A stretch of 11,681 nt of DNA from a virus, in the UHGV virus genome UHGV-0168755; one strand, written 5' to 3'. Both the position numbers and the translations under genes were made by a program. Of this stretch, positions 1-11,681 are shown piece after piece (the stretch's first letter is position 1; each line of letters opens with the position of its first letter). The notes beneath the pieces were generated by a model, which made no database searches, had not been told where the DNA came from, and worked only from the letters and a program-made list of their open reading frames with translations.

Positions 1-50
1 TACGAGATGTCTTAGGGTCTCGTGGGCTCGGAGATGTGTATAAGAGACAG
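1..50. other. Illumina Nextera adapter (i7 index plus transposase mosaic end); library artefact, not biological
   Basis: Sequence TACGAGAT-GTCTTAGG-GTCTCGTGGGCTCGG-AGATGTGTATAAGAGACAG matches the Nextera read-2 adapter with the 19-nt Tn5 mosaic end; its exact reverse complement is at the 3' end of the window. Confidence 0.95.
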
Positions 51-2262: not shown

Positions 2263-3606
2263 ATCAGAAATACGCAGAGAACATTGTGTTACATCTGTCA
2301 GTACCGATGCAATAAACAACGTCTGAATAGAAAGCTGAACCAATGTTGGGTTACGTAGAACTTCCAACATTAAACCGAATCCACCGGGGGATTCTTTAAT
2401 CAGCTCATTAATAATTTCATGTACCAACGGTACATACTGCATTGCCGCAAATGCAATGATACGTTCGCACTGCCGTGGTGTATAATCACGACGACCCAGC
2501 TTGTTCTCAATGTGAACGCTCGCCAACGGAACCAACCAACGCCAAGGCGCAATCACTTTCAACGCATCGTGAGGTTCAGAGATAGGAGAGATAGTCACAC
2601 GTCCGCCCCACGGTACGTGTGTTGACCCGAGTTTTGCCCGATAGAACCCAGGTTTACCTTCCATCACTTCCTGACGATGGTCAATATAGAAATACGCAAG
2701 TTGACGATTCGCTTTGATTGCGCGACGAATAATAAATCGCGGATCGATACGACGTGCATTCGTGTACAGCAACGCCACATTTTTTACTGCGTCGATAGCG
2801 CTGGTGTATACGGGATCGATAAAGATACCCTGTCGACGTTCCTCCGTAACGATCAGTTTCGACGAAATAATCGGAAGATGCCTTGGAAAGAATGTGAACG
2901 ATTGCTCTTGAAAGAACTCACGCCATTCTAAGCGTACACGCTCACTCTCATAACGGTTATTTTTCGTTGGTGGATAAATCTCCTTCCAAACTTCCGGGGA
3001 CGTGAGGATATTAAAGACGGTTCGATGATGGTCGATAAAGTTTCGAATACCGCGTTCGAATCCGTGCTCAATGAGTATTCTTTTCACTACCCGAGCTCGT
3101 GTCCCTTCGTCCTTTTCTGGTCGATAGTACGGATCGATTAGCCATAGAAGCAAATCAGAACCGCGCTCTACCGTCACCTTGTTACGATTGAACTTTTTCA
3201 GCTTAGAACCAAAGAAAGCATTGAAGAGAGACCAAAAACGTGGATTGATAAAGTTGCCCATCTCATCGGGAGCACGTAACCAAACTTCGGACGTAATCCG
3301 GTGTTCAGAAACAACGTGTCCACAGTGCGGGCAACGTAGCCCAAGATTGTAACGATGGGTAATAGGTGATTCGCAGGTCAAACTGCAAATAGGAGCCGAG
3401 TTGAGTGTCTCATCAACGATTCGGTTTTGAAGTATCTGGTTAATCATCTCTGACGCTTCGATGGTATCCATCGTTACAGCAACGTCATTGATAATAATCG
3501 GCGGTTTGTAGCCTTTTTCCTCCGCTTCTTGTATACAGTCACGTAACATTTTATCGTGACTAATTAATCGCCCTGAAATCCCGTAATATTCTAGTTTATG
3601 TTCCAC
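2182..3606 (-). CDS. multisubunit RNA polymerase beta'-like N-terminal subunit, exon 1 (ORF as called; the last roughly 20-35 codons before the TAA at 2182 are probably intron read-through)
   Basis: GTG start at 3604-3606 with GAGGA 6 nt upstream. Zinc finger CSLTC-x13-CPHCGHVV (compare E. coli CxC-x12-CEKCGVEV), GGRVTISPI (compare GRSVITVGP) and LRNPTLVQLSIQ (compare NRAPTLHRLGIQ), in the same order as bacterial beta'. Confidence 0.8.
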   Translation of the reverse strand: MEHKLEYYGISGRLISHDKMLRDCIQEAEEKGYKPPIIINDVAVTMDTIEASEMINQILQNRIVDETLNSAPICSLTCESPITHRYNLGLRCPHCGHVVSEHRITSEVWLRAPDEMGNFINPRFWSLFNAFFGSKLKKFNRNKVTVERGSDLLLWLIDPYYRPEKDEGTRARVVKRILIEHGFERGIRNFIDHHRTVFNILTSPEVWKEIYPPTKNNRYESERVRLEWREFFQEQSFTFFPRHLPIISSKLIVTEERRQGIFIDPVYTSAIDAVKNVALLYTNARRIDPRFIIRRAIKANRQLAYFYIDHRQEVMEGKPGFYRAKLGSTHVPWGGRVTISPISEPHDALKVIAPWRWLVPLASVHIENKLGRRDYTPRQCERIIAFAAMQYVPLVHEIINELIKESPGGFGLMLEVLRNPTLVQLSIQTLFIASVLTDVTQCSLRISDRVIKAPNAKCWPTRRETSSAYPLNCW

Positions 3607-3619
3607 GCCGAATCCTCAA

Positions 3620-3662
3620 CAAAAAAAGAGAGGGAAGGGACAGGGGGTTTTCCCCTGTCCCT
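3620..3662 (-). terminator. candidate intrinsic terminator/attenuator between the 615-aa gene and the beta' gene
   Basis: 10-11 bp stem GGGACAGGGG/CCCCTGTCCC (3637-3661) with 5-nt loop, followed on the minus strand by UUCCCUCUCUUUUUUUG. The U-run starts about 9 nt after the stem, so the call is moderate. It abuts the beta' RBS. Confidence 0.45.
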
Positions 3663-3690
3663 CAACTACTGCTTACTACTTACCAACTTA

Positions 3691-5538
3691 TCAGAAAGTC
3701 GGACGCCAGTCAGTTGCAGCGAAGGACATACCGAAATCGCTACCAAATGCGTTCGGGCCGCTACCAGACAGTGCGAAGTTCTCATTACCCGTGTTAACAA
3801 ACACAGAGTGAGTGAGGCTGTTCGCTGCGGTAACACCGTTCACCTGGAAGTTGCAGTTTTCGGTGATGTATTCCACCAGTGCTTTACCGAACATCGGGTT
3901 GATTGCCAGATCAGACGCTTCGCCAGTTACCTGCGGCTGTTTGCTACCGAACATGGACGCAGCCATTTTCAGCAGGTACAGACGCTGGTCACGCGCATTC
4001 AGATAGCGGTGAGAGTAGGACTGTGCACTAATGTAGTCGATCGCATCGCGCTGGTTGTCGCCCACTTTAGTCAGAGCGGAAACCAAGTCCATATCCTGGA
4101 AGCTACGTTTCTGGCTGTTGCTGAAATACTGACCAGAGATGGTCGGGCAACCGGCGATAACAACATGTTTGCACTCAAAGTTGTTGACATTTCCCAGCAT
4201 CGCTTTGAAGCGGGTGCTGAACTTAGTCGCGCCGTTGCTGGCCATGTTATCCAGGATGTTGAACAGGGTATACAGTGCGTTGGTGTTACCCATCCCGATT
4301 TCGCTCAGGAGAGTAGACAGACCACCAATACCGTTACCTGCACGATGGTTCACCACCAGTGCCGCAGTCGGATTAGCGAAAGTATCCAGGCATTTCTCGA
4401 TAACTTCACGGTTACCGTCGATTTTGCTCAGGTCAGGTTTTTCGCTGCCCCATTCTACATACTCCAGAACGCGGGAGAAGCGGCGATCGGTTTTGTTCAG
4501 CGACTGCATGAAACGTTCACGCCATCCGCCGATAGTGGCGATTTGTGCGAACGCGGCCAGTTCAATCAGCTGACGTTCGATAGGTGCCATTGCCCCAGAG
4601 GATTGAGAATCCATCAGAGAAACAACCACTTCGGCTTCCAGCTGACGCAGGTCCTGAGTACCGTTGGTCAGAGTTTGCGGTTTACCTTTATGGCGGAGGT
4701 TGATGTAACCAACACCTGCAACGCTCGGATAATTCTGGAGGCGTTCAGAAGAGAACAGCGTCGGGTTATTATCGTTATTGCCGGTGCGGGAATGGTCAAC
4801 CACAACCATCAGGTCAGCACGTTGTGCAGAACCGTTAACGTCAGTTACAGAACCTTCTTCAACGACACTGACTTGTGCAGTGAAGCGATCAGAGCGGGTC
4901 ATTTTCAGGTAGCCCAGGTAGCCGGAATGACGACCGAAGATACCCAGTGCAATCTGGCCCATGAGCTGGTTAGCCCATTCTTCGTTCATGGTTTTACCCA
5001 GTTCCGGTACGCAGTTCATTACCATGAACTGTACGCTCGGCAGATTGTGCTGAGTTGCAATCTGGTTAGTGATGTTGTTCATCACACCTTCTTGACTGAA
5101 CAGCTGTGCCAGGGTGTAGTAGTTTTCTTTACCGTTGATTTCGTAGAAACGGATGGATTGGCCGTGTTCGAAGAACAGGATACCGTAGAGCCATTCGTTA
5201 TGGTTATCACCAGACGGACCAGCCACATATGCAGCAGAACCCATTTCAGAGTTGATGCCGTCAATGACGCCCCAACGGAAGTTACGCAGGTAGGTGTTCT
5301 TCTCTGCCATCTTCTCAATCAGACTGGTGAACTGAGAAGCAGTGGACACAAAGGACATATACCCAAAAGCTTTATCGAAGGTGGAAATGTTTTTAGACAT
5401 TCCACCAAAAGCGTTGGCCGCATTGGTGTTATCCATAGTAGGAGCTCCCGCACCGCCGAAAGACGGAATTGGATCTGCGGCGGAACCAGCAGCACCAGTC
5501 ACAACGTCGTTTTGATTGTCAATAAACTCTTTAGCCAT
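3691..5538 (-). CDS. highly expressed 615-aa protein; candidate phage-nucleus shell protein (chimallin), alternatively a major virion structural protein
   Basis: ATG start with AAGGA RBS. Codon usage is visibly shifted to E. coli-type optimal codons (CTG, CGT, GGT, ACC, AAC, GAA) compared with neighbours. Gly/Ala-rich flexible N-terminal segment. Lies immediately upstream of, and co-oriented with, the beta' N-terminal subunit gene. Identity is inferred from size and position, not from recognised sequence. Confidence 0.7.
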   Translation of the reverse strand: MAKEFIDNQNDVVTGAAGSAADPIPSFGGAGAPTMDNTNAANAFGGMSKNISTFDKAFGYMSFVSTASQFTSLIEKMAEKNTYLRNFRWGVIDGINSEMGSAAYVAGPSGDNHNEWLYGILFFEHGQSIRFYEINGKENYYTLAQLFSQEGVMNNITNQIATQHNLPSVQFMVMNCVPELGKTMNEEWANQLMGQIALGIFGRHSGYLGYLKMTRSDRFTAQVSVVEEGSVTDVNGSAQRADLMVVVDHSRTGNNDNNPTLFSSERLQNYPSVAGVGYINLRHKGKPQTLTNGTQDLRQLEAEVVVSLMDSQSSGAMAPIERQLIELAAFAQIATIGGWRERFMQSLNKTDRRFSRVLEYVEWGSEKPDLSKIDGNREVIEKCLDTFANPTAALVVNHRAGNGIGGLSTLLSEIGMGNTNALYTLFNILDNMASNGATKFSTRFKAMLGNVNNFECKHVVIAGCPTISGQYFSNSQKRSFQDMDLVSALTKVGDNQRDAIDYISAQSYSHRYLNARDQRLYLLKMAASMFGSKQPQVTGEASDLAINPMFGKALVEYITENCNFQVNGVTAANSLTHSVFVNTGNENFALSGSGPNAFGSDFGMSFAATDWRPTF

Positions 5539-5582
5539 TTTACTTAATCCTTATAAGGTTTAATACAATTGTAGTGTTGGTT

Positions 5583-7040: not shown

Positions 7041-9353
7041 TCACTCGTCGTCAAAAGCCTCTTCTTCATCATCGTCTTCTTCGTCGTCACCTGCCCTCTC
7101 TGATTTCTTAACGTATTGTACTTCTGCTAATTCCTTGTACAGTTCGTCTTCTTCCTCGACTTTATCGTAGAAATCCGATAACAGTCTCATCCTGTTCTTA
7201 TCCATCATGAACACACCTAAGCATTCCAGAATGTGATAGTAAGGTTCAACTGTAGAGAAAGCCGTGCGACGAATGTCCGCGATAGCGATCAGTTCTTTAG
7301 GAATACCGTAGTTTTCCACCAAATGTTCTGGCAGAATCAACGTTTTGTATTTACGGTAGTTCGTCTCTTCAAACCACGCCGCTGCACCGTTTTTGATAAT
7401 CGGATCTTCTATACTGTCAACCCATTCTTTAATCTTCGTTTTGTTTTCCAACGTTACCGGAAGTTTCACAGCATCGTACGGCGGTTCTTCCAAGTAACCA
7501 AACTTCGGACCAAAGATAGCATTATACATTCGGTGATAGTGATAGTTCTTTTCGTCCTTCTCGTTATAAGCTGCACGCTCTTTAATGTTTGTCGTTTTCA
7601 GATACCCTGGATTACCGGAACGAATGGAATCCATAATCGTGTGCTCGATTTGCGCAACCTTTTCCAGTAATGGAATGATTTCAATTTGGTCACCGCGACC
7701 AACAACCTCACACAACCCCTTAATGGTATTCTTAAACTCCTTCATGATAATCGGCGGAATATTCGACGTACGTAAAGACACGCCTTTTACTTCCAACTCG
7801 GGATCTTTCTTCAACTGACCTTCCTGGCCGGTAATCAATGAGAAGTAGTGTTTTGCTTTGGTAGTTAAGGCAAATGAATCGAACTTAAATTCATTTTTCA
7901 TCGCATAAAGGAATAAACGCTCTTTTGCCACACCGATATTTGCAGACATACTCGCCATCAAATGACGTAAGTGTTGTGTAGCAATATAAATCATTGCATT
8001 GGAAACACGAGTCGCTACTTCACCGTAATGTTTACCGGTGTACCAGATTGCCCACCACTGTGCGGTCATCATGGTAGAGTCAGTATCAGATACCACACCA
8101 ACACGACGAACCACATCTGGCATTCTAGCGATATTAATCGGTAGGTTTTTTGTCGTGAGAATATTACGAATCAGTAACGCGTATTTACCGATTGTTTTCT
8201 GCAAGAACACCGCAGAACGAATCAGCTCTTTATAACCTTCTTGCTGATCCCACGGCAAGGGCTTTTTATTACCGTCAAGTTTCTTAACGTCGCTGAACGC
8301 TTTACCCATCGGTACCACGTCAGTGCGGAACTGTGAGATAATAATCTGCATATCGCCGTCGATGGTCTTCTCAGCAGCAGACCAATCCTCATCACTCCAA
8401 CCGTCGGTATCGACTCGCACTTCAGGAGTAATTAACGCGCCAATAAAATCACGCATGAATTTGTCGTTGTACTTCGCCAGGTGGAAAAAGTCACCCATGT
8501 ATACAAACGCTGCACGCGTTAACGGCGAAACATTACTAACATAATGCTCAACGAACTCCATCCCTTCTTCATTCTTAAAGTAGAAGTCTGCGGAGTAATG
8601 GATAACATCCATTACTTCTTCTACGGTCGGATAATGAAGTTCGTACGTCTCCATACATTTCTTAAAGCTGTTCCAATCGGTTAAAGTACCGATAGATAAG
8701 AAATGATCGATAATTCGTGATGGGGTATCGTAATGACGGTTGCCACCTAACAAACGCTCGTTGCCCGCATTGCCAAACGAGGTTGCAGTACGGCAGGTGG
8801 ACGTCAGCACAGAGTGCGAAGACTGGTTGAAGATAATGGTATACGGAGAAGAGAATGCGCCCGACATCCCGTTGTTCAGTGTCTTAACCGCGTTCTGTTC
8901 GTTCTTTTTGTTGATCTTTAATACTTCATTACCAGCAGCAGCAGCGGCAAACATCTCTTTCTTTACCGCAGCACGTTTCGCTACGTTGGCTGCTGTGAAT
9001 TCCGACAGCTTAGAACGTTTGATGTGTTCTGGAATATAAAAAGTTAACGAAGGTGCAGAGATGATCTGTTTATCAATAACGGTTTTAAATAGCTTATCAA
9101 CAGTTGTATATTTTTCCTCACGATCGCCCGTTTTCTGGTTACGCACCCACATCTTACACACGGGGGACTCGGTGGATAACTCACCGCCCGGTGCAACAAG
9201 TGCATCGACTTCTTGACGGCAAAACTCTAAAGGATATTTTTGTGCTGTCACGTTATGAATGTATAACGCAACCTGTTCACGGTAGGCATCGTTGATATCA
9301 ATATCGCGATGGTATTCGTCTACCGATAAACGAAAAGGAGAATTGTATTCCAC
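7041..9353 (-). CDS. hypothetical 770-aa protein with polyacidic C-terminus (DDEEDDDEEEAFDDE); function unknown
   Basis: GTG start at 9351-9353 with GAGG 6 nt upstream; first gene after the terminator at 9408-9446. Contains VVSDTDS and ALLIRNILT segments that loosely resemble DNA polymerase family B motifs C and B, but no convincing catalytic motif A. Confidence 0.75.
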   Translation of the reverse strand: MEYNSPFRLSVDEYHRDIDINDAYREQVALYIHNVTAQKYPLEFCRQEVDALVAPGGELSTESPVCKMWVRNQKTGDREEKYTTVDKLFKTVIDKQIISAPSLTFYIPEHIKRSKLSEFTAANVAKRAAVKKEMFAAAAAGNEVLKINKKNEQNAVKTLNNGMSGAFSSPYTIIFNQSSHSVLTSTCRTATSFGNAGNERLLGGNRHYDTPSRIIDHFLSIGTLTDWNSFKKCMETYELHYPTVEEVMDVIHYSADFYFKNEEGMEFVEHYVSNVSPLTRAAFVYMGDFFHLAKYNDKFMRDFIGALITPEVRVDTDGWSDEDWSAAEKTIDGDMQIIISQFRTDVVPMGKAFSDVKKLDGNKKPLPWDQQEGYKELIRSAVFLQKTIGKYALLIRNILTTKNLPINIARMPDVVRRVGVVSDTDSTMMTAQWWAIWYTGKHYGEVATRVSNAMIYIATQHLRHLMASMSANIGVAKERLFLYAMKNEFKFDSFALTTKAKHYFSLITGQEGQLKKDPELEVKGVSLRTSNIPPIIMKEFKNTIKGLCEVVGRGDQIEIIPLLEKVAQIEHTIMDSIRSGNPGYLKTTNIKERAAYNEKDEKNYHYHRMYNAIFGPKFGYLEEPPYDAVKLPVTLENKTKIKEWVDSIEDPIIKNGAAAWFEETNYRKYKTLILPEHLVENYGIPKELIAIADIRRTAFSTVEPYYHILECLGVFMMDKNRMRLLSDFYDKVEEEDELYKELAEVQYVKKSERAGDDEEDDDEEEAFDDE

Positions 9354-9454: not shown

Positions 9455-9868
9455 TTAACCTGCGGCGTTTTCAATGATTTCGATTTCCACATCATTAAAG
9501 CCGCGCGCTGCCAACGCAGCTTCCAGATCTTCTTTCTCTTGTTTGTTGTCAAGCTGCACAACAAAACGAGCCGTCAAACTGGTAATTACTCTTACTTCAC
9601 GTACCCACGCATCTGCCGCAACGCCCACTTTACCCGTAGAATCACGGAACAACATGTAGTTGTACGCCGTAAGATCATTCGTCGGTTGCCCTACCAGCGA
9701 CGAATAAATGTTCTTCTGGATAGCAGCCAGATCTTCGCCTGCGGTTTTTGCGAATTCGTAACCGACTTTCGACGCGAGTACACGAACTCGCGTTTCGTTG
9801 CCTTTCAATGGGGTATCGTAAACAATGTTTACAATAGACCCTGGTTCAATGCTACTAAAATCAAACAT
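9455..9868 (-). CDS. hypothetical protein (137 aa from ATG 9866-9868; the ORF track starts 2 codons earlier at a GTG)
   Basis: GAGGAG RBS 5 nt upstream of the ATG; start overlaps the TGA of the upstream gene in ATGTTTGA (translational coupling); followed by the strong terminator. Confidence 0.7.
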   Translation of the reverse strand: MFDFSSIEPGSIVNIVYDTPLKGNETRVRVLASKVGYEFAKTAGEDLAAIQKNIYSSLVGQPTNDLTAYNYMLFRDSTGKVGVAADAWVREVRVITSLTARFVVQLDNKQEKEDLEAALAARGFNDVEIEIIENAAG

Positions 9869-10475
9869 TGTCACTCCTCAACATTGTGATGTCCAGATGG
9901 AACGTAACGTAAACACCCGAAACGGTACCTAAGTTGTCGTGTAACGATAAGTTTAAACACAAGCTCTCAATACCGCTTTTGTGCGCGGTACGAAAGAGCT
10001 GGATAGCGGGTAGACAATCGTTCTCGTAAATCTCGAGAATACTATCACGAAGAATTTCTATCGCGTGTTCACGCAACACATCCCAAGAAGACCCGCCTTG
10101 TATTTTACACAACTCATAGATTTCCAGAAGGGGTCGCATATCCTCAATCATGTCTTCCGTATAACTGGTTTCCATCATTGAGTTAAATTCCCACTGCCGG
10201 TATTCAGCATTTAACCGTTTCAGGTAACTGTCTAACTCTTTCAGTTCCCTTTTATTGCCAGGAAAGCTACACGCTTCCGATAGCTCACTGATCGCGGTAT
10301 TGATATATCGCGTTGCTTCATCCGTCGTCTCTATCGTTGTAGGAAAAGGCACTCGCATACAGCGAAAGCGCATTAGGGTTCTTACTAACTTATCTTTGTA
10401 GAAATCGCCATCCGTGGCGTATTCCAGTAACCCTAAGTTCGGACGGATGAAATGATCACCCCGTACTTTGTACAT
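9861..10475 (-). CDS. hypothetical protein (204 aa)
   Basis: ATG at 10473-10475 directly abuts the TGA of the upstream gene (10476-10478); AGAGG RBS 5 nt upstream. Confidence 0.7.
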   Translation of the reverse strand: MYKVRGDHFIRPNLGLLEYATDGDFYKDKLVRTLMRFRCMRVPFPTTIETTDEATRYINTAISELSEACSFPGNKRELKELDSYLKRLNAEYRQWEFNSMMETSYTEDMIEDMRPLLEIYELCKIQGGSSWDVLREHAIEILRDSILEIYENDCLPAIQLFRTAHKSGIESLCLNLSLHDNLGTVSGVYVTFHLDITMLRSDNV

Positions 10476-10928
10476 TCAAACCTCTATGCAAATAAATCCA
10501 CTCCCAATCTCATTCATAAACAAAGATACTTTAGTTTTCTTCGATCCTTTTTCAGGCGTTAACCCGGACTGACACCAGAGTGTTTCCACCAGATTACGGA
10601 TACGAAAATAGTCCACATCCTTTTCTATTTCAAACTGCAACAAAGAATGGGAGAATATGCGAACTTCATCGACTGGGAACAGTTGTGCTAATTGCGTGAA
10701 AATAAATTGGTGATTGGGTGGGATGAACGTCAGAAACGTTTCACCCTCACCCAAACGACGTACCACCGAACGTACGGATTCCTCTGCATACTTCGCCAGG
10801 AACCAGTACGCTATGTGTGGTGCTACCGAACCAATATCCGCATTGTCAACCCGTGAATGTAAACGCTCCGGGAGATACACTTCCGAAATTTCCATAAACA
10901 GTTTCATTGCAGACCAACACCAAATCAT
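10476..10928 (-). CDS. hypothetical protein (about 150 aa); start uncertain, overlaps the upstream gene by 50-98 nt or is joined to it by a frameshift
   Basis: ORF-track start at 10943 is a TTG. In-frame ATGs at 10926-10928 (GGGGA upstream), 10907 and 10895 all lie inside the 3' end of ORF 10846-11352. Confidence 0.5.
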   Translation of the reverse strand: MIWCWSAMKLFMEISEVYLPERLHSRVDNADIGSVAPHIAYWFLAKYAEESVRSVVRRLGEGETFLTFIPPNHQFIFTQLAQLFPVDEVRIFSHSLLQFEIEKDVDYFRIRNLVETLWCQSGLTPEKGSKKTKVSLFMNEIGSGFICIEV

Positions 10929-11352
10929 TGAACGTTTCCCCAATCCAACGTGTCAAAGGACCAGGAAACATAGAATTAATCAACGCAGCTAATCCTGTCT
11001 GCGTCACGAGTTCGTTTTGCAGTATCTCCGCCGCATGGCAAATCGCTACCATGTGGTTATTCTCATCCCCTACTGTGGAGAGAAACGTGATACTTTCTAC
11101 AGTTACGCCAGGGATCGTATTTTCGTCGTATGCGGTGACGGTAACCAGCTCTTTTAGCAGCTCAGGGTTACGTGCCTTCGCTGCGATAATGTACGCAGTA
11201 CCAAAGTCTTCATAGAGTCTACGGACATCGTGCTCGTAGACGTCTAAACGACCTGCTTCTAAAACGTCTACCAATACGTCCCGTACTGCTTCGTAGAATC
11301 GGGTTCTGCCGTAATTTTGTACCTCTTGTGCGACGTAATAGACATACTGCAT
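10846..11352 (-). CDS. hypothetical protein (168 aa)
   Basis: ATG at 11350-11352 overlaps the TAA of the upstream partial gene (TAATG arrangement). Confidence 0.65.
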   Translation of the reverse strand: MQYVYYVAQEVQNYGRTRFYEAVRDVLVDVLEAGRLDVYEHDVRRLYEDFGTAYIIAAKARNPELLKELVTVTAYDENTIPGVTVESITFLSTVGDENNHMVAICHAAEILQNELVTQTGLAALINSMFPGPLTRWIGETFNDLVLVCNETVYGNFGSVSPGAFTFTG

Positions 11353-11634
11353 TATAAGACCTTCCCAGCCAGGTTACCCAGCAACAGTTCTACAATCGTT
11401 TGCATATTCGGCGTCAGTTGTTGTAACAAAGCCGGTTCTTCGTATTCTGGGTACTTTACTTGCTCGTACCTTACCAGAAACTCTACCGCACCTGGCTTTT
11501 GTGCACAATAACGCGCACCTATCCACTGGCCGTATCGTGTAAACCAATACGGCTCTGTCGACACCGCCACCACAAAACTCTTCGCCACCTCCTGTGTCGA
11601 TTTTATATATTCCATTGCACGTTCACCATCTAAC
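11352..11634 (-). CDS. hypothetical protein, 5'-partial or starting at ATG about 11613-11615; the ORF-track N-terminus MGSEMCIRDR is adapter-encoded
   Basis: The frame is open from the insert edge. The first 10 codons of the track ORF are translated from the adapter CTGTCTCTTATACACATCTCCGAGCCCAC. A candidate real start, ATG (MEYIKSTQ...), has a weak GGTGA upstream. Confidence 0.5.
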
Positions 11635-11681
11635 CTGTCTCTTATACACATCTCCGAGCCCACGAGACCCTAAGACATCTC
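11635..11681. other. Illumina Nextera adapter (mosaic end CTGTCTCTTATACACATCT + CCGAGCCCACGAGAC + index CCTAAGAC + ATCTC); library artefact
   Basis: Exact reverse complement of positions 1-50; canonical adapter sequence. Position may be off by 1 nt. Confidence 0.95.

What the first reader, a model, noticed from the sequence alone, without database searches (positions are those of the whole stretch)
10846..10943. Unusually long overlap between two co-directional ORFs: candidate frameshift or assembly indel
ORF 10846-11352 (frame A) and ORF 10476-10943 (frame B, +1 relative to A) overlap by up to 98 nt. The first non-overlapping start codon in frame B is a GTG about 58 codons in. Either the downstream gene starts inside the upstream gene (ATG at 10926-10928 with GGGGA upstream), or the two are one roughly 300-aa protein joined by a +1 shift, or there is a 1-nt indel error. 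All other junctions in this operon are tight overlaps of 1-8 nt, which makes this one stand out.
Basis: seen in the sequence. Interest (0 to 1): 0.35.

Follow-up and report, generated by a model that had tools for sequence, protein, structure and literature searches.

The report
Ordinary 62-nt overlap of two phage genes
Two neighbouring genes of unknown function in a jumbo phage really do overlap, by 62 bases rather than 98, and related phages show this is an ordinary overlap and not a frameshift, a fused gene or a sequencing error.

Summary
The two ORFs are real, lie on the minus strand, and overlap by up to 98 nt as described. The biologically supported overlap is 62 nt (10846-10907).

- **Start codon.** The downstream gene starts at ATG 10907-10905. 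This ATG is invariant in every homologue examined. In three near-identical strains it is cut off from the gene by an in-frame TAG.
- **No assembly error.** The exact 168-aa upstream protein is indexed in 107 blocks of public assemblies.
- **No fusion.** Every homologue examined has two separate genes in the same order. No roughly 300-aa fused protein turned up among 1.84 billion representative proteins.
- **No frameshift signal.** The frame relation is not conserved (+1 in most lineages, +2 with an ATGA junction in SPN3US), and the junction has no unusual RNA structure.
- **How the overlap arises.** The upstream ORF runs past the downstream ATG in another frame until it meets a stop. This gives lineage-specific tails of 1-24 aa and overlaps of 4-62 nt.
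- **Which frame is under selection.** The four substitutions in the overlap against the closest relatives are all silent in the downstream gene and all change the upstream tail.
- **Chance expectation.** Random synonymous recoding gives an overlap of 62 nt or more 32% of the time.

Verdict: an ordinary, real overlap. Low interest.

The parts
10846..11352 (-). Upstream gene, 168 aa, function unknown (PHROG 8126). The conserved core ends at Cys148 (codon 10911-10909). Codons 149-168 are a lineage-specific tail, followed by stop TGA 10848-10846.
   Evidence: phrog_8126 E=1.7e-38. tblastn hits in 45 jumbo phages. The exact protein is indexed in 107 assembly blocks. Alignment with 99/85/63% relatives, all 168 aa.
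10476..10907 (-). Downstream gene, 143 aa, function unknown (PHROG 9694). Start ATG 10907-10905, stop TGA 10478-10476.
   Evidence: phrog_9694 aligns profile positions 1-144/144 to residues 13-155 of the long ORF. M1 is invariant in the 7-sequence alignment. ATG is the start in all 17 IMG/VR loci. Gene callers in public assemblies aa in 7 of the 8 contigs listed and 139 aa in the other.
10846..10907 (-). The true overlap, 62 nt. It is read as the downstream N-terminus (MKLFMEISEVYLPERLHSRV) and, one base out of phase, as the upstream tail (NETVYGNFGSVSPGAFTFTG plus stop).
   Evidence: Identical in 8 strain-level contigs. Same length in L008/L009 and in L010-L012.
10908..10943 (-). Spurious 5' extension of the downstream ORF (TTG 10943 and ATG 10928). 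It is open in this window by chance and is not coding in this frame. It does code for conserved residues of the upstream protein.
   Evidence: A G->A change at the equivalent of window 10921 is silent in the upstream frame (TTG>TTA) and gives TGG>TAG in the downstream frame in L027, L029 and L030. ATG 10928 is AGC in L005/L006. The downstream frame is closed 2-3 codons before the ATG in Asesino, phiEaH2 and L010-L012.
10909..10923 (-). Codons for the conserved L-V-L-V-C end of the upstream protein core. It contains GGTG 11-14 nt before the downstream ATG, the only Shine-Dalgarno-like element and a weak one.
   Evidence: Sequence. The other genes in the string have GAGG-type sites 5-8 nt upstream. 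The motif becomes AGTG in L027/L029/L030, so any role as a ribosome binding site is inference only.

Best explanation
These are two separate, co-directional genes of a roughly 225-kb jumbo phage related to the SPN3US, Erskinevirus, Wellingtonvirus and Machinavirus groups. They overlap by 62 nt.

The downstream gene initiates at the family-invariant ATG 10907-10905. That ATG sits immediately after the last conserved residue (Cys148) of the upstream protein. Here, as in all sampled lineages except SPN3US, the ATG is one base out of phase with the upstream frame, so no stop is read at the junction. SPN3US has TGC GAA TGA, giving an ATGA junction. This window has TGC AAT GAA.

Ribosomes translating the upstream gene therefore continue through the first 20 codons of the downstream gene in the other frame, until the first chance stop (TGA 10848-10846). 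This adds an unconserved 20-aa tail.

- **Shown:** the gene boundaries, that the sequence is correct, the conservation of the two-gene architecture, and that selection in the overlap follows the downstream frame.
- **Inferred:** the downstream gene is translated by independent internal initiation, helped by upstream-gene ribosomes keeping the site unfolded and using at most a weak GGTG site. The tail has no function of its own.
For: 1. Homologues always have two genes in the same order, with overlaps of 4 (SPN3US), 17, 26, 35, 41 and 62 nt. The ATG is invariant. The phase is +1 everywhere except SPN3US.
2. The upstream tails after the conserved Cys are 1-24 aa long and unrelated apart from what the downstream frame forces.
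3. Window against L008/L009: 4 substitutions in the overlap, all synonymous in the downstream frame and all non-synonymous in the upstream tail.
4. A strain-level SNP puts TAG in the downstream frame between ATG 10928 and ATG 10907 while being silent upstream.
5. The exact upstream protein is indexed in 107 assembly blocks. The six contigs listed are 50-228 kb and come from six different samples. Close clusters at 99, 85 and 63% identity are all 168 aa and stand for 10, 54 and 129 member sequences.
6. No fused homologue exists: 17 hits in 1.84e9 representatives, with family members of 140-214 aa, two short fragments, and one 2070-aa entry with no aligned stretch.
7. Synonymous-recoding simulation: P(overlap >= 62) = 0.32.
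8. The junction RNA folds no better than shuffled sequence, z = 0.14.
Against: - There is no expression or proteomic data for either protein, so the start codon is assigned by comparative evidence only.
- The downstream ATG lacks the GAGG-type ribosome binding site seen at neighbouring genes, so how efficiently it initiates is unknown.
- The sister clade L010-L012 (downstream protein 64% identical) keeps the upstream stop at exactly the same codon, although as TAA instead of TGA. Its tail is 9/20 identical. This leaves room for some constraint on tail length.
- The 4-substitution count is small.
Confidence: 0.9

Rival explanations
1. The overlap is real as described, but the 20-aa upstream tail is itself functional, or the overlap is selected as a device to couple or set the ratio of the two proteins.
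For: - The +1 overlap arrangement is kept in all sampled lineages except SPN3US.
- The clade that is 63% identical in the upstream protein (64% in the downstream one) keeps the same stop position with a different stop codon, and 9/20 tail residues.
- There are no SNPs in the 62-nt overlap among 8 strain contigs, against 28 variable sites in 877 nt.
Against: - Tail length (1-24 aa) and sequence are not conserved across the family, and SPN3US manages with one residue.
- All 4 substitutions against the closest relatives change the tail and spare the downstream protein.
- Residual tail similarity falls where the downstream N-terminus (MEISEV / MEVSEV) is conserved.
- Zero SNPs in 62 nt is about what is expected (roughly 2) and also follows from double coding.
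- Chance gives this overlap length 32% of the time.
Confidence: 0.08
2. In this particular phage the downstream gene starts at ATG 10928-10926 behind the GGGGA motif. This would give a 150-aa protein and an 83-nt overlap.
For: - The ATG is in frame.
- GGGGA lies 8 nt upstream, a better purine-rich site than anything before ATG 10907.
Against: - Strains with a 100% identical upstream protein have TAG between this ATG and the gene (L027, L029, L030).
- The codon is AGC in L005/L006.
- Other lineages have stops 2-3 codons before the conserved ATG.
- GGGGA is explained by the conserved Gly-Glu codons of the upstream protein.
- The PHROG profile starts at M13.
Confidence: 0.04
3. Programmed +1 ribosomal frameshifting in the overlap fuses the two ORFs into a roughly 290-aa protein, alongside or instead of the separate products.
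For: - The two ORFs are co-directional and +1 apart, with a 62-nt window in which a shift could occur.
- An A-AAT-TTC heptamer is present, but it would direct a -1 shift into the third frame, not into the downstream frame (read directly).
Against: - The downstream gene has its own invariant ATG.
- The required shift would be +1 in most lineages but -1 in SPN3US.
- There is no prfB-like CUU-UGA or other conserved shift site at the junctions printed.
- There is no stimulatory structure, z = 0.14.
- There are no fused homologues.
Confidence: 0.02
4. A 1-nt assembly or sequencing indel split one gene or artificially extended the upstream ORF.
For: The contig is a short-read assembly with untrimmed adapters at both ends, so its quality might be doubted.
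Against: - The identical 168-aa protein is indexed in 107 blocks. The six contigs listed come from six different samples and three other sources: NCBI, ENA and Logan.
- The junction is nucleotide-identical in 8 contigs.
- The same frame, and the same stop position, is found in relatives at 85% and 63% identity.
Confidence: 0.01

Closest known systems
holD/rimI co-directional overlap in Enterobacteria (Palleja, Harrington & Bork 2008, PMC2478687)
   Same: A real co-directional overlap conserved across a group, with lineage-specific length. It is 32 bp in E. coli and up to 56 bp in Salmonella and Yersinia. The C-terminus of one protein and the N-terminus of the next are read from the same DNA.
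   Different: - Here the overlap reaches 62 nt. That is just above the 60-bp limit beyond which that survey found no genuine co-directional overlap in 338 cellular genomes.
- The genes are phage genes of unknown function.
- The upstream tail is not conserved in sequence across the family.
Category iii of Palleja et al. [quoted passage not shown]
   Same: Compared with SPN3US gp14, which ends one residue after the conserved Cys at an ATGA junction, the upstream gene here is extended at its 3' end. A 1-nt phase difference removes the in-frame stop.
   Different: In that paper the category denotes sequencing or annotation errors. Here the extension is a true, inherited feature of the genome, reproduced in many independent assemblies and shared by sister clades.
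ATGA / TAATG translationally coupled junctions
   Same: The SPN3US orthologues use ATGA. The neighbouring junction in this window, 11352, is TAATG. The same operon logic of tightly packed co-directional genes applies.
   Different: At this junction the upstream stop lies 62 nt downstream of the start. Classic termination-reinitiation at an adjacent codon therefore cannot operate, and initiation must be internal.
Programmed +1 frameshift genes (prfB; phage tail-chaperone G/GT-type frameshifts are -1)
   Same: Two co-directional, out-of-phase ORFs that overlap.
   Different: The downstream ORF has its own conserved ATG. There is no conserved shift site, no structure, no conserved phase and no fused homologues.

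Membership tests
Genuine co-directional overlapping gene pair | Each ORF has homologues that exist as separate proteins | tested here: met
   PHROG 8126 and 9694. Both found by tblastn in 45 and 42 phage records, and annotated as two separate genes in the four records inspected.
Genuine co-directional overlapping gene pair | The sequence of the overlap is reproducible in independent data | tested here: met
   The exact protein is indexed in 107 blocks. The junction is identical in 8 contigs from different samples.
Genuine co-directional overlapping gene pair | The downstream start codon inside the upstream ORF is conserved in relatives | tested here: met
   ATG is invariant in 17 IMG/VR loci and 4 GenBank phages. 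It lies inside the upstream ORF in all but the SPN3US lineage, which has ATGA.
Genuine co-directional overlapping gene pair | Both proteins are made from the predicted boundaries | not testable with these tools
   No proteomic or ribosome-profiling data. SPN3US papers searched do not mention gp14 or gp15.
Programmed ribosomal frameshift fusion | The same frame relation, and so the same shift direction, is conserved among homologues | tested here: not met
   +1 in most lineages, +2 in SPN3US.
Programmed ribosomal frameshift fusion | The downstream ORF lacks an independent conserved start codon | tested here: not met
   Invariant ATG at the N-terminus of all homologues.
Programmed ribosomal frameshift fusion | A conserved slippery or shift-prone site and a stimulatory RNA structure | tested here: not met
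   Fold z = 0.14. No shared shift motif was seen by eye in the junctions printed. No formal motif search was run.
Split gene caused by an indel (assembly error or pseudogene) | Homologues encode one continuous protein covering both ORFs | tested here: not met
   Family members among the 17 hits in 1.84e9 representatives are 140-214 aa. None is near 300 aa. There are two genes in every genome inspected.
ATGA-type termination-reinitiation junction | The upstream stop overlaps or abuts the downstream start | tested here: not met
   The stop is 62 nt downstream of the start in the window. The feature is met only in the SPN3US orthologues.

The most novel reading that the evidence does not exclude
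The out-of-phase arrangement is kept in all sampled lineages but SPN3US. It could be a selected device. One version is that translation of the upstream gene through the first 20 codons of the downstream gene regulates downstream initiation, by occlusion or unfolding, and so sets the ratio of two proteins that work together. Another is that the overprinted 20-aa tail has acquired a function in this clade. The stop position is kept, as TGA or TAA, across clades that are 63% identical in the upstream protein.
Probability: 0.08. Interest if true: 0.3.

Novelty: already known. Interest (0 to 1): 0.08.

Why it matters
Mostly as a clean negative. There is no recoding event, no fused gene and no sequence error here.

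Two practical points follow:
- The longest-ORF rule overstates the overlap (98 nt against 62 nt). The correct start, ATG 10907, can be fixed from a strain-level stop-creating SNP and from family conservation.
- This is a well-verified example of a real co-directional overlap slightly longer than 60 nt. In cellular genomes that class was reported to consist only of annotation errors (PMC2478687). Automatic rules that discard such overlaps would wrongly trim one of these phage genes.

Tried and rejected
- **Megablast against GenBank phages.** The region 9800-11681 matched only the Nextera adapter at the contig end. There is no close cultured relative.
- **Pfam.** Nothing for either protein, so function stays unknown.
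- **AlphaFold2 of the upstream protein.** Mean pLDDT was 38.7 and pTM 0.29, which is unusable. No fold search was run, and the low confidence of the tail says nothing.
- **PDB sequence search with the neighbouring 615-aa protein.** No hit.
- **Literature on SPN3US.** No mention of gp14 or gp15, so there is no proteomic evidence from the model relative.
- **RNA folding of the junction.** No structure beyond the shuffled expectation.
- **Comparison with the clade 64% identical in the downstream protein.** There were 17 differences, 8 silent in the downstream frame and 5 silent in the upstream tail. This is too saturated and too small to discriminate. Only the comparison with the closest relatives was informative.
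- **ATG 10895 (M17 of the long ORF) as the start.** Considered and rejected, because that Met is not conserved (Leu or Phe in other lineages). One public gene call does use it (L027, 139 aa).

Full report
**Observation**

The window carries a string of minus-strand genes. The two ORFs in the finding are 11352->10846 (168 aa, ATG) and 10943->10476 (155 aa from a TTG under the longest-ORF rule). They share 10846-10943, which is 98 nt, and the second is +1 relative to the first. The other junctions in the string are tight: a 1-nt TAATG overlap, a 0-nt gap, an 8- or 14-nt overlap, then a 101-nt gap before the DNA polymerase gene.

**What the genes are**

Both are conserved hypothetical proteins of jumbo phages. 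The upstream one matches PHROG 8126 (E = 1.7e-38) and the downstream one PHROG 9694 (E = 7.4e-42). Neither has a Pfam match.

The neighbours on the same strand are a 204-aa protein, an SH3DP protein (PF20287) and a divergent DNA polymerase (PHROG 2927; PF20286 in the public gene calls). Further along are a 615-aa protein and an RNA polymerase beta-subunit-like protein.

tblastn finds both proteins side by side in 42-45 GenBank jumbo phages of Salmonella, Erwinia, Escherichia and Proteus, at 26-48% identity. These include SPN3US (Seoulvirus), Asesino and phiEaH2 (Erskinevirus), Wellington and ChrisDB.

**Where the downstream gene starts**

- The PHROG profile (positions 1-144 of 144) aligns to residues 13-155 of the long ORF. 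The tblastn alignments to the SPN3US group also begin at residue 13.
- Residue 13 is ATG 10907-10905. In a 7-sequence alignment this Met is invariant. In all 17 related IMG/VR loci the match begins with ATG.
- In Asesino, phiEaH2 and the L010-L012 clade the downstream frame is closed by a stop only 2-3 codons before that ATG, so nothing further upstream can be used.
- Most directly, three contigs whose upstream protein is 100% identical to the window's (L027, L029, L030) carry a G->A change at the equivalent of window 10921. It is silent in the upstream frame (TTG>TTA) and turns TGG into TAG in the downstream frame, between ATG 10928 and ATG 10907.

So 10908-10943 is not coding in the downstream frame, and the real overlap is 62 nt (10846-10907). 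Public gene callers reach the same 168-aa and 143-aa pair in seven of the eight contigs listed.

**Is it an assembly error?**

No. The exact 168-aa upstream protein is indexed in 107 blocks of public assemblies. The six contigs listed are 50-228 kb and come from six different samples held by NCBI, ENA and Logan. The junction is nucleotide-identical in eight of these contigs. Clusters at 99, 85 and 63% identity are all exactly 168 aa and stand for 10, 54 and 129 member sequences.

**Is it one gene read through a frameshift?**

There is no support for this.

- Every homologous genome examined has two genes in this order.
- A full HMMER scan of 1.84 billion representative proteins with the upstream protein found 17 hits. 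Family members are 140-214 aa. The rest are two fragments of 65 and 68 aa and a 2070-aa entry with no aligned stretch. Nothing is near 300 aa.
- The phase between the genes is not conserved. The downstream start is at +1 in all sampled lineages except SPN3US, where it is at +2 with a classic ATGA junction. A conserved programmed shift would need opposite directions in different lineages.
- The 151-nt junction RNA folds no better than shuffled sequence (z = 0.14).
- No prfB-like motif is seen at any of the junctions printed.

**How the overlap arises**

The upstream proteins share a C-terminal core ending in (V/L)-V-x-C. The downstream ATG follows within one or two codons.

- SPN3US reads TGC GAA TGA, so the stop overlaps the ATG.
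- The window reads TGC AAT GAA ACT. The same ATGA letters are there, but the upstream frame is one base off and the TGA is not read.

The upstream ORF then continues in the alternative frame of the downstream N-terminus until a stop happens to occur. The resulting tails are:

| Lineage | Tail after the conserved Cys |
|---|---|
| SPN3US | 1 aa |
| Machinavirus group | 6 aa |
| L018 | 8 aa |
| Wellington and phiEaH2 groups | 11 aa |
| Asesino | 13 aa |
| This window and its two sister clades | 20 aa |
| One representative (P0004) | 24 aa |

The corresponding overlaps are 4, 17, 26, 35, 41 and 62 nt. No DNA was available for P0004, so its overlap was not measured. The tails resemble one another only where the downstream N-terminus (M-K-L-Y/F...) forces it.

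**Which frame is under selection**

Against L008/L009 there are four substitutions inside the overlap. All four are synonymous in the downstream frame and all four change the upstream tail. The number is small, but the direction is clear: the downstream protein is the constrained reading and the tail drifts.

Against the clade 64% identical in the downstream protein, the comparison is saturated. Of 17 differences, 8 are silent downstream and 5 are silent in the tail. That clade does keep the stop at the same codon, as TAA instead of TGA. This is the one observation that leaves some room for constraint on tail length.

**Is 62 nt more than chance gives?**

I held the downstream protein fixed and redrew synonymous codons from the window's own usage 100,000 times. 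The first stop in the upstream frame gave an overlap of 62 nt or more in 32% of trials. The commonest outcomes were 23-41 nt. Given the phase, the length is unremarkable.

**Mechanism (inferred)**

Ribosomes on the upstream gene read through the downstream start and terminate 62 nt beyond it, so adjacent termination-reinitiation as at ATGA cannot apply. The downstream gene must be initiated internally at ATG 10907.

The neighbouring genes have GAGG-type sites 5-8 nt upstream. This start has only GGTG at -14 to -11. That GGTG lies within the Val/Leu codons of the upstream core, and it is AGTG in some strains. Initiation is therefore probably weak, or helped by upstream translation keeping the site open. 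This step is not shown.

**Comparison with what is known**

Palleja et al. (PMC2478687) found no genuine co-directional overlap of 60 bp or more in 338 prokaryotic genomes. The longest real one they found was holD/rimI, at 32-56 bp with genus-specific length.

The present pair behaves like holD/rimI. It is conserved as an overlap, with lineage-specific length. It corresponds to their category of 3' extension of the upstream gene, except that here the extension is a true inherited feature and not an error. It is slightly over their 60-bp limit, in a phage.

**Verdict**

This is a real but ordinary overlap, correctly 62 nt. It is not a frameshift, a fusion or an indel. Interest is low.

Noticed in passing
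window 1-50 and 11635-11681: Both ends of the window are untrimmed Illumina Nextera adapter (AGATGTGTATAAGAGACAG / CTGTCTCTTATACACATCT...CCGAGCCCACGAGAC plus index CCTAAGAC plus ATCTC). Identity to the related contig L026 stops exactly at 11634. Megablast of the region matched dozens of unrelated GenBank phage records only through this adapter, so those records also carry adapter contamination.
   Followed up: yes
window 11352-11663 (-): The 103-aa GTG ORF at the contig end is a truncated gene. Its first residues (MGSEMCIRDR) are translated adapter. Related contigs call a 169-aa protein here (PHROG 8024 profile positions 77-168 matched).
   Followed up: partly
window 3598-5547 (+) versus 3691-5538 (-): A 649-aa stop-free ORF lies antisense to the 615-aa gene. 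Only the minus-strand product has homologues (PHROG 8316, E = 1.7e-232), so the plus-strand ORF looks like an unusually long shadow ORF.
   Followed up: no
window 9855-9874 (-): The SH3DP gene probably starts at ATG 9868 (GAGGAG 6 nt upstream; public calls give 137 aa) and not at the GTG 9874 listed by the longest-ORF rule. This makes its overlap with the preceding gene 8 nt, not 14.
   Followed up: partly
L003 (Erwinia phage Wellington MH426724.1) 2030-2070: The GenBank start of Wellington gp25 (a TTG, protein beginning LADIY) looks too far downstream. The family-conserved ATG (MRMYLSLADIY) lies 18 nt upstream, giving a 35-nt overlap with gp24 instead of the annotated 17 nt.
   Followed up: partly
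L025-L032 (public contigs carrying the identical upstream protein): This phage, or very close strains, is widespread in public data. The exact protein is indexed in 107 blocks, with contigs of 225-228 kb that are probably near-complete genomes. Two of these are inside NCBI assemblies (GCA_958332565.1, GCA_014613015.1). I did not determine what organisms those assemblies are labelled as.
   Followed up: no
window 7041-9353 (-), C-terminus: The divergent DNA polymerase (PHROG 2927 / PF20286) ends in a strongly acidic tail (...AGDDEEDDDEEEAFDDE) that lies beyond the PHROG profile match (residues 1-729).
   Followed up: no
window 10846-10907 and L025-L032: Among 8 strain-level contigs there are 28 variable sites in the 877 nt spanning both genes, and none in the 62-nt overlap. 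This is consistent with double coding, but about 2 were expected, so it is not significant.
   Followed up: partly
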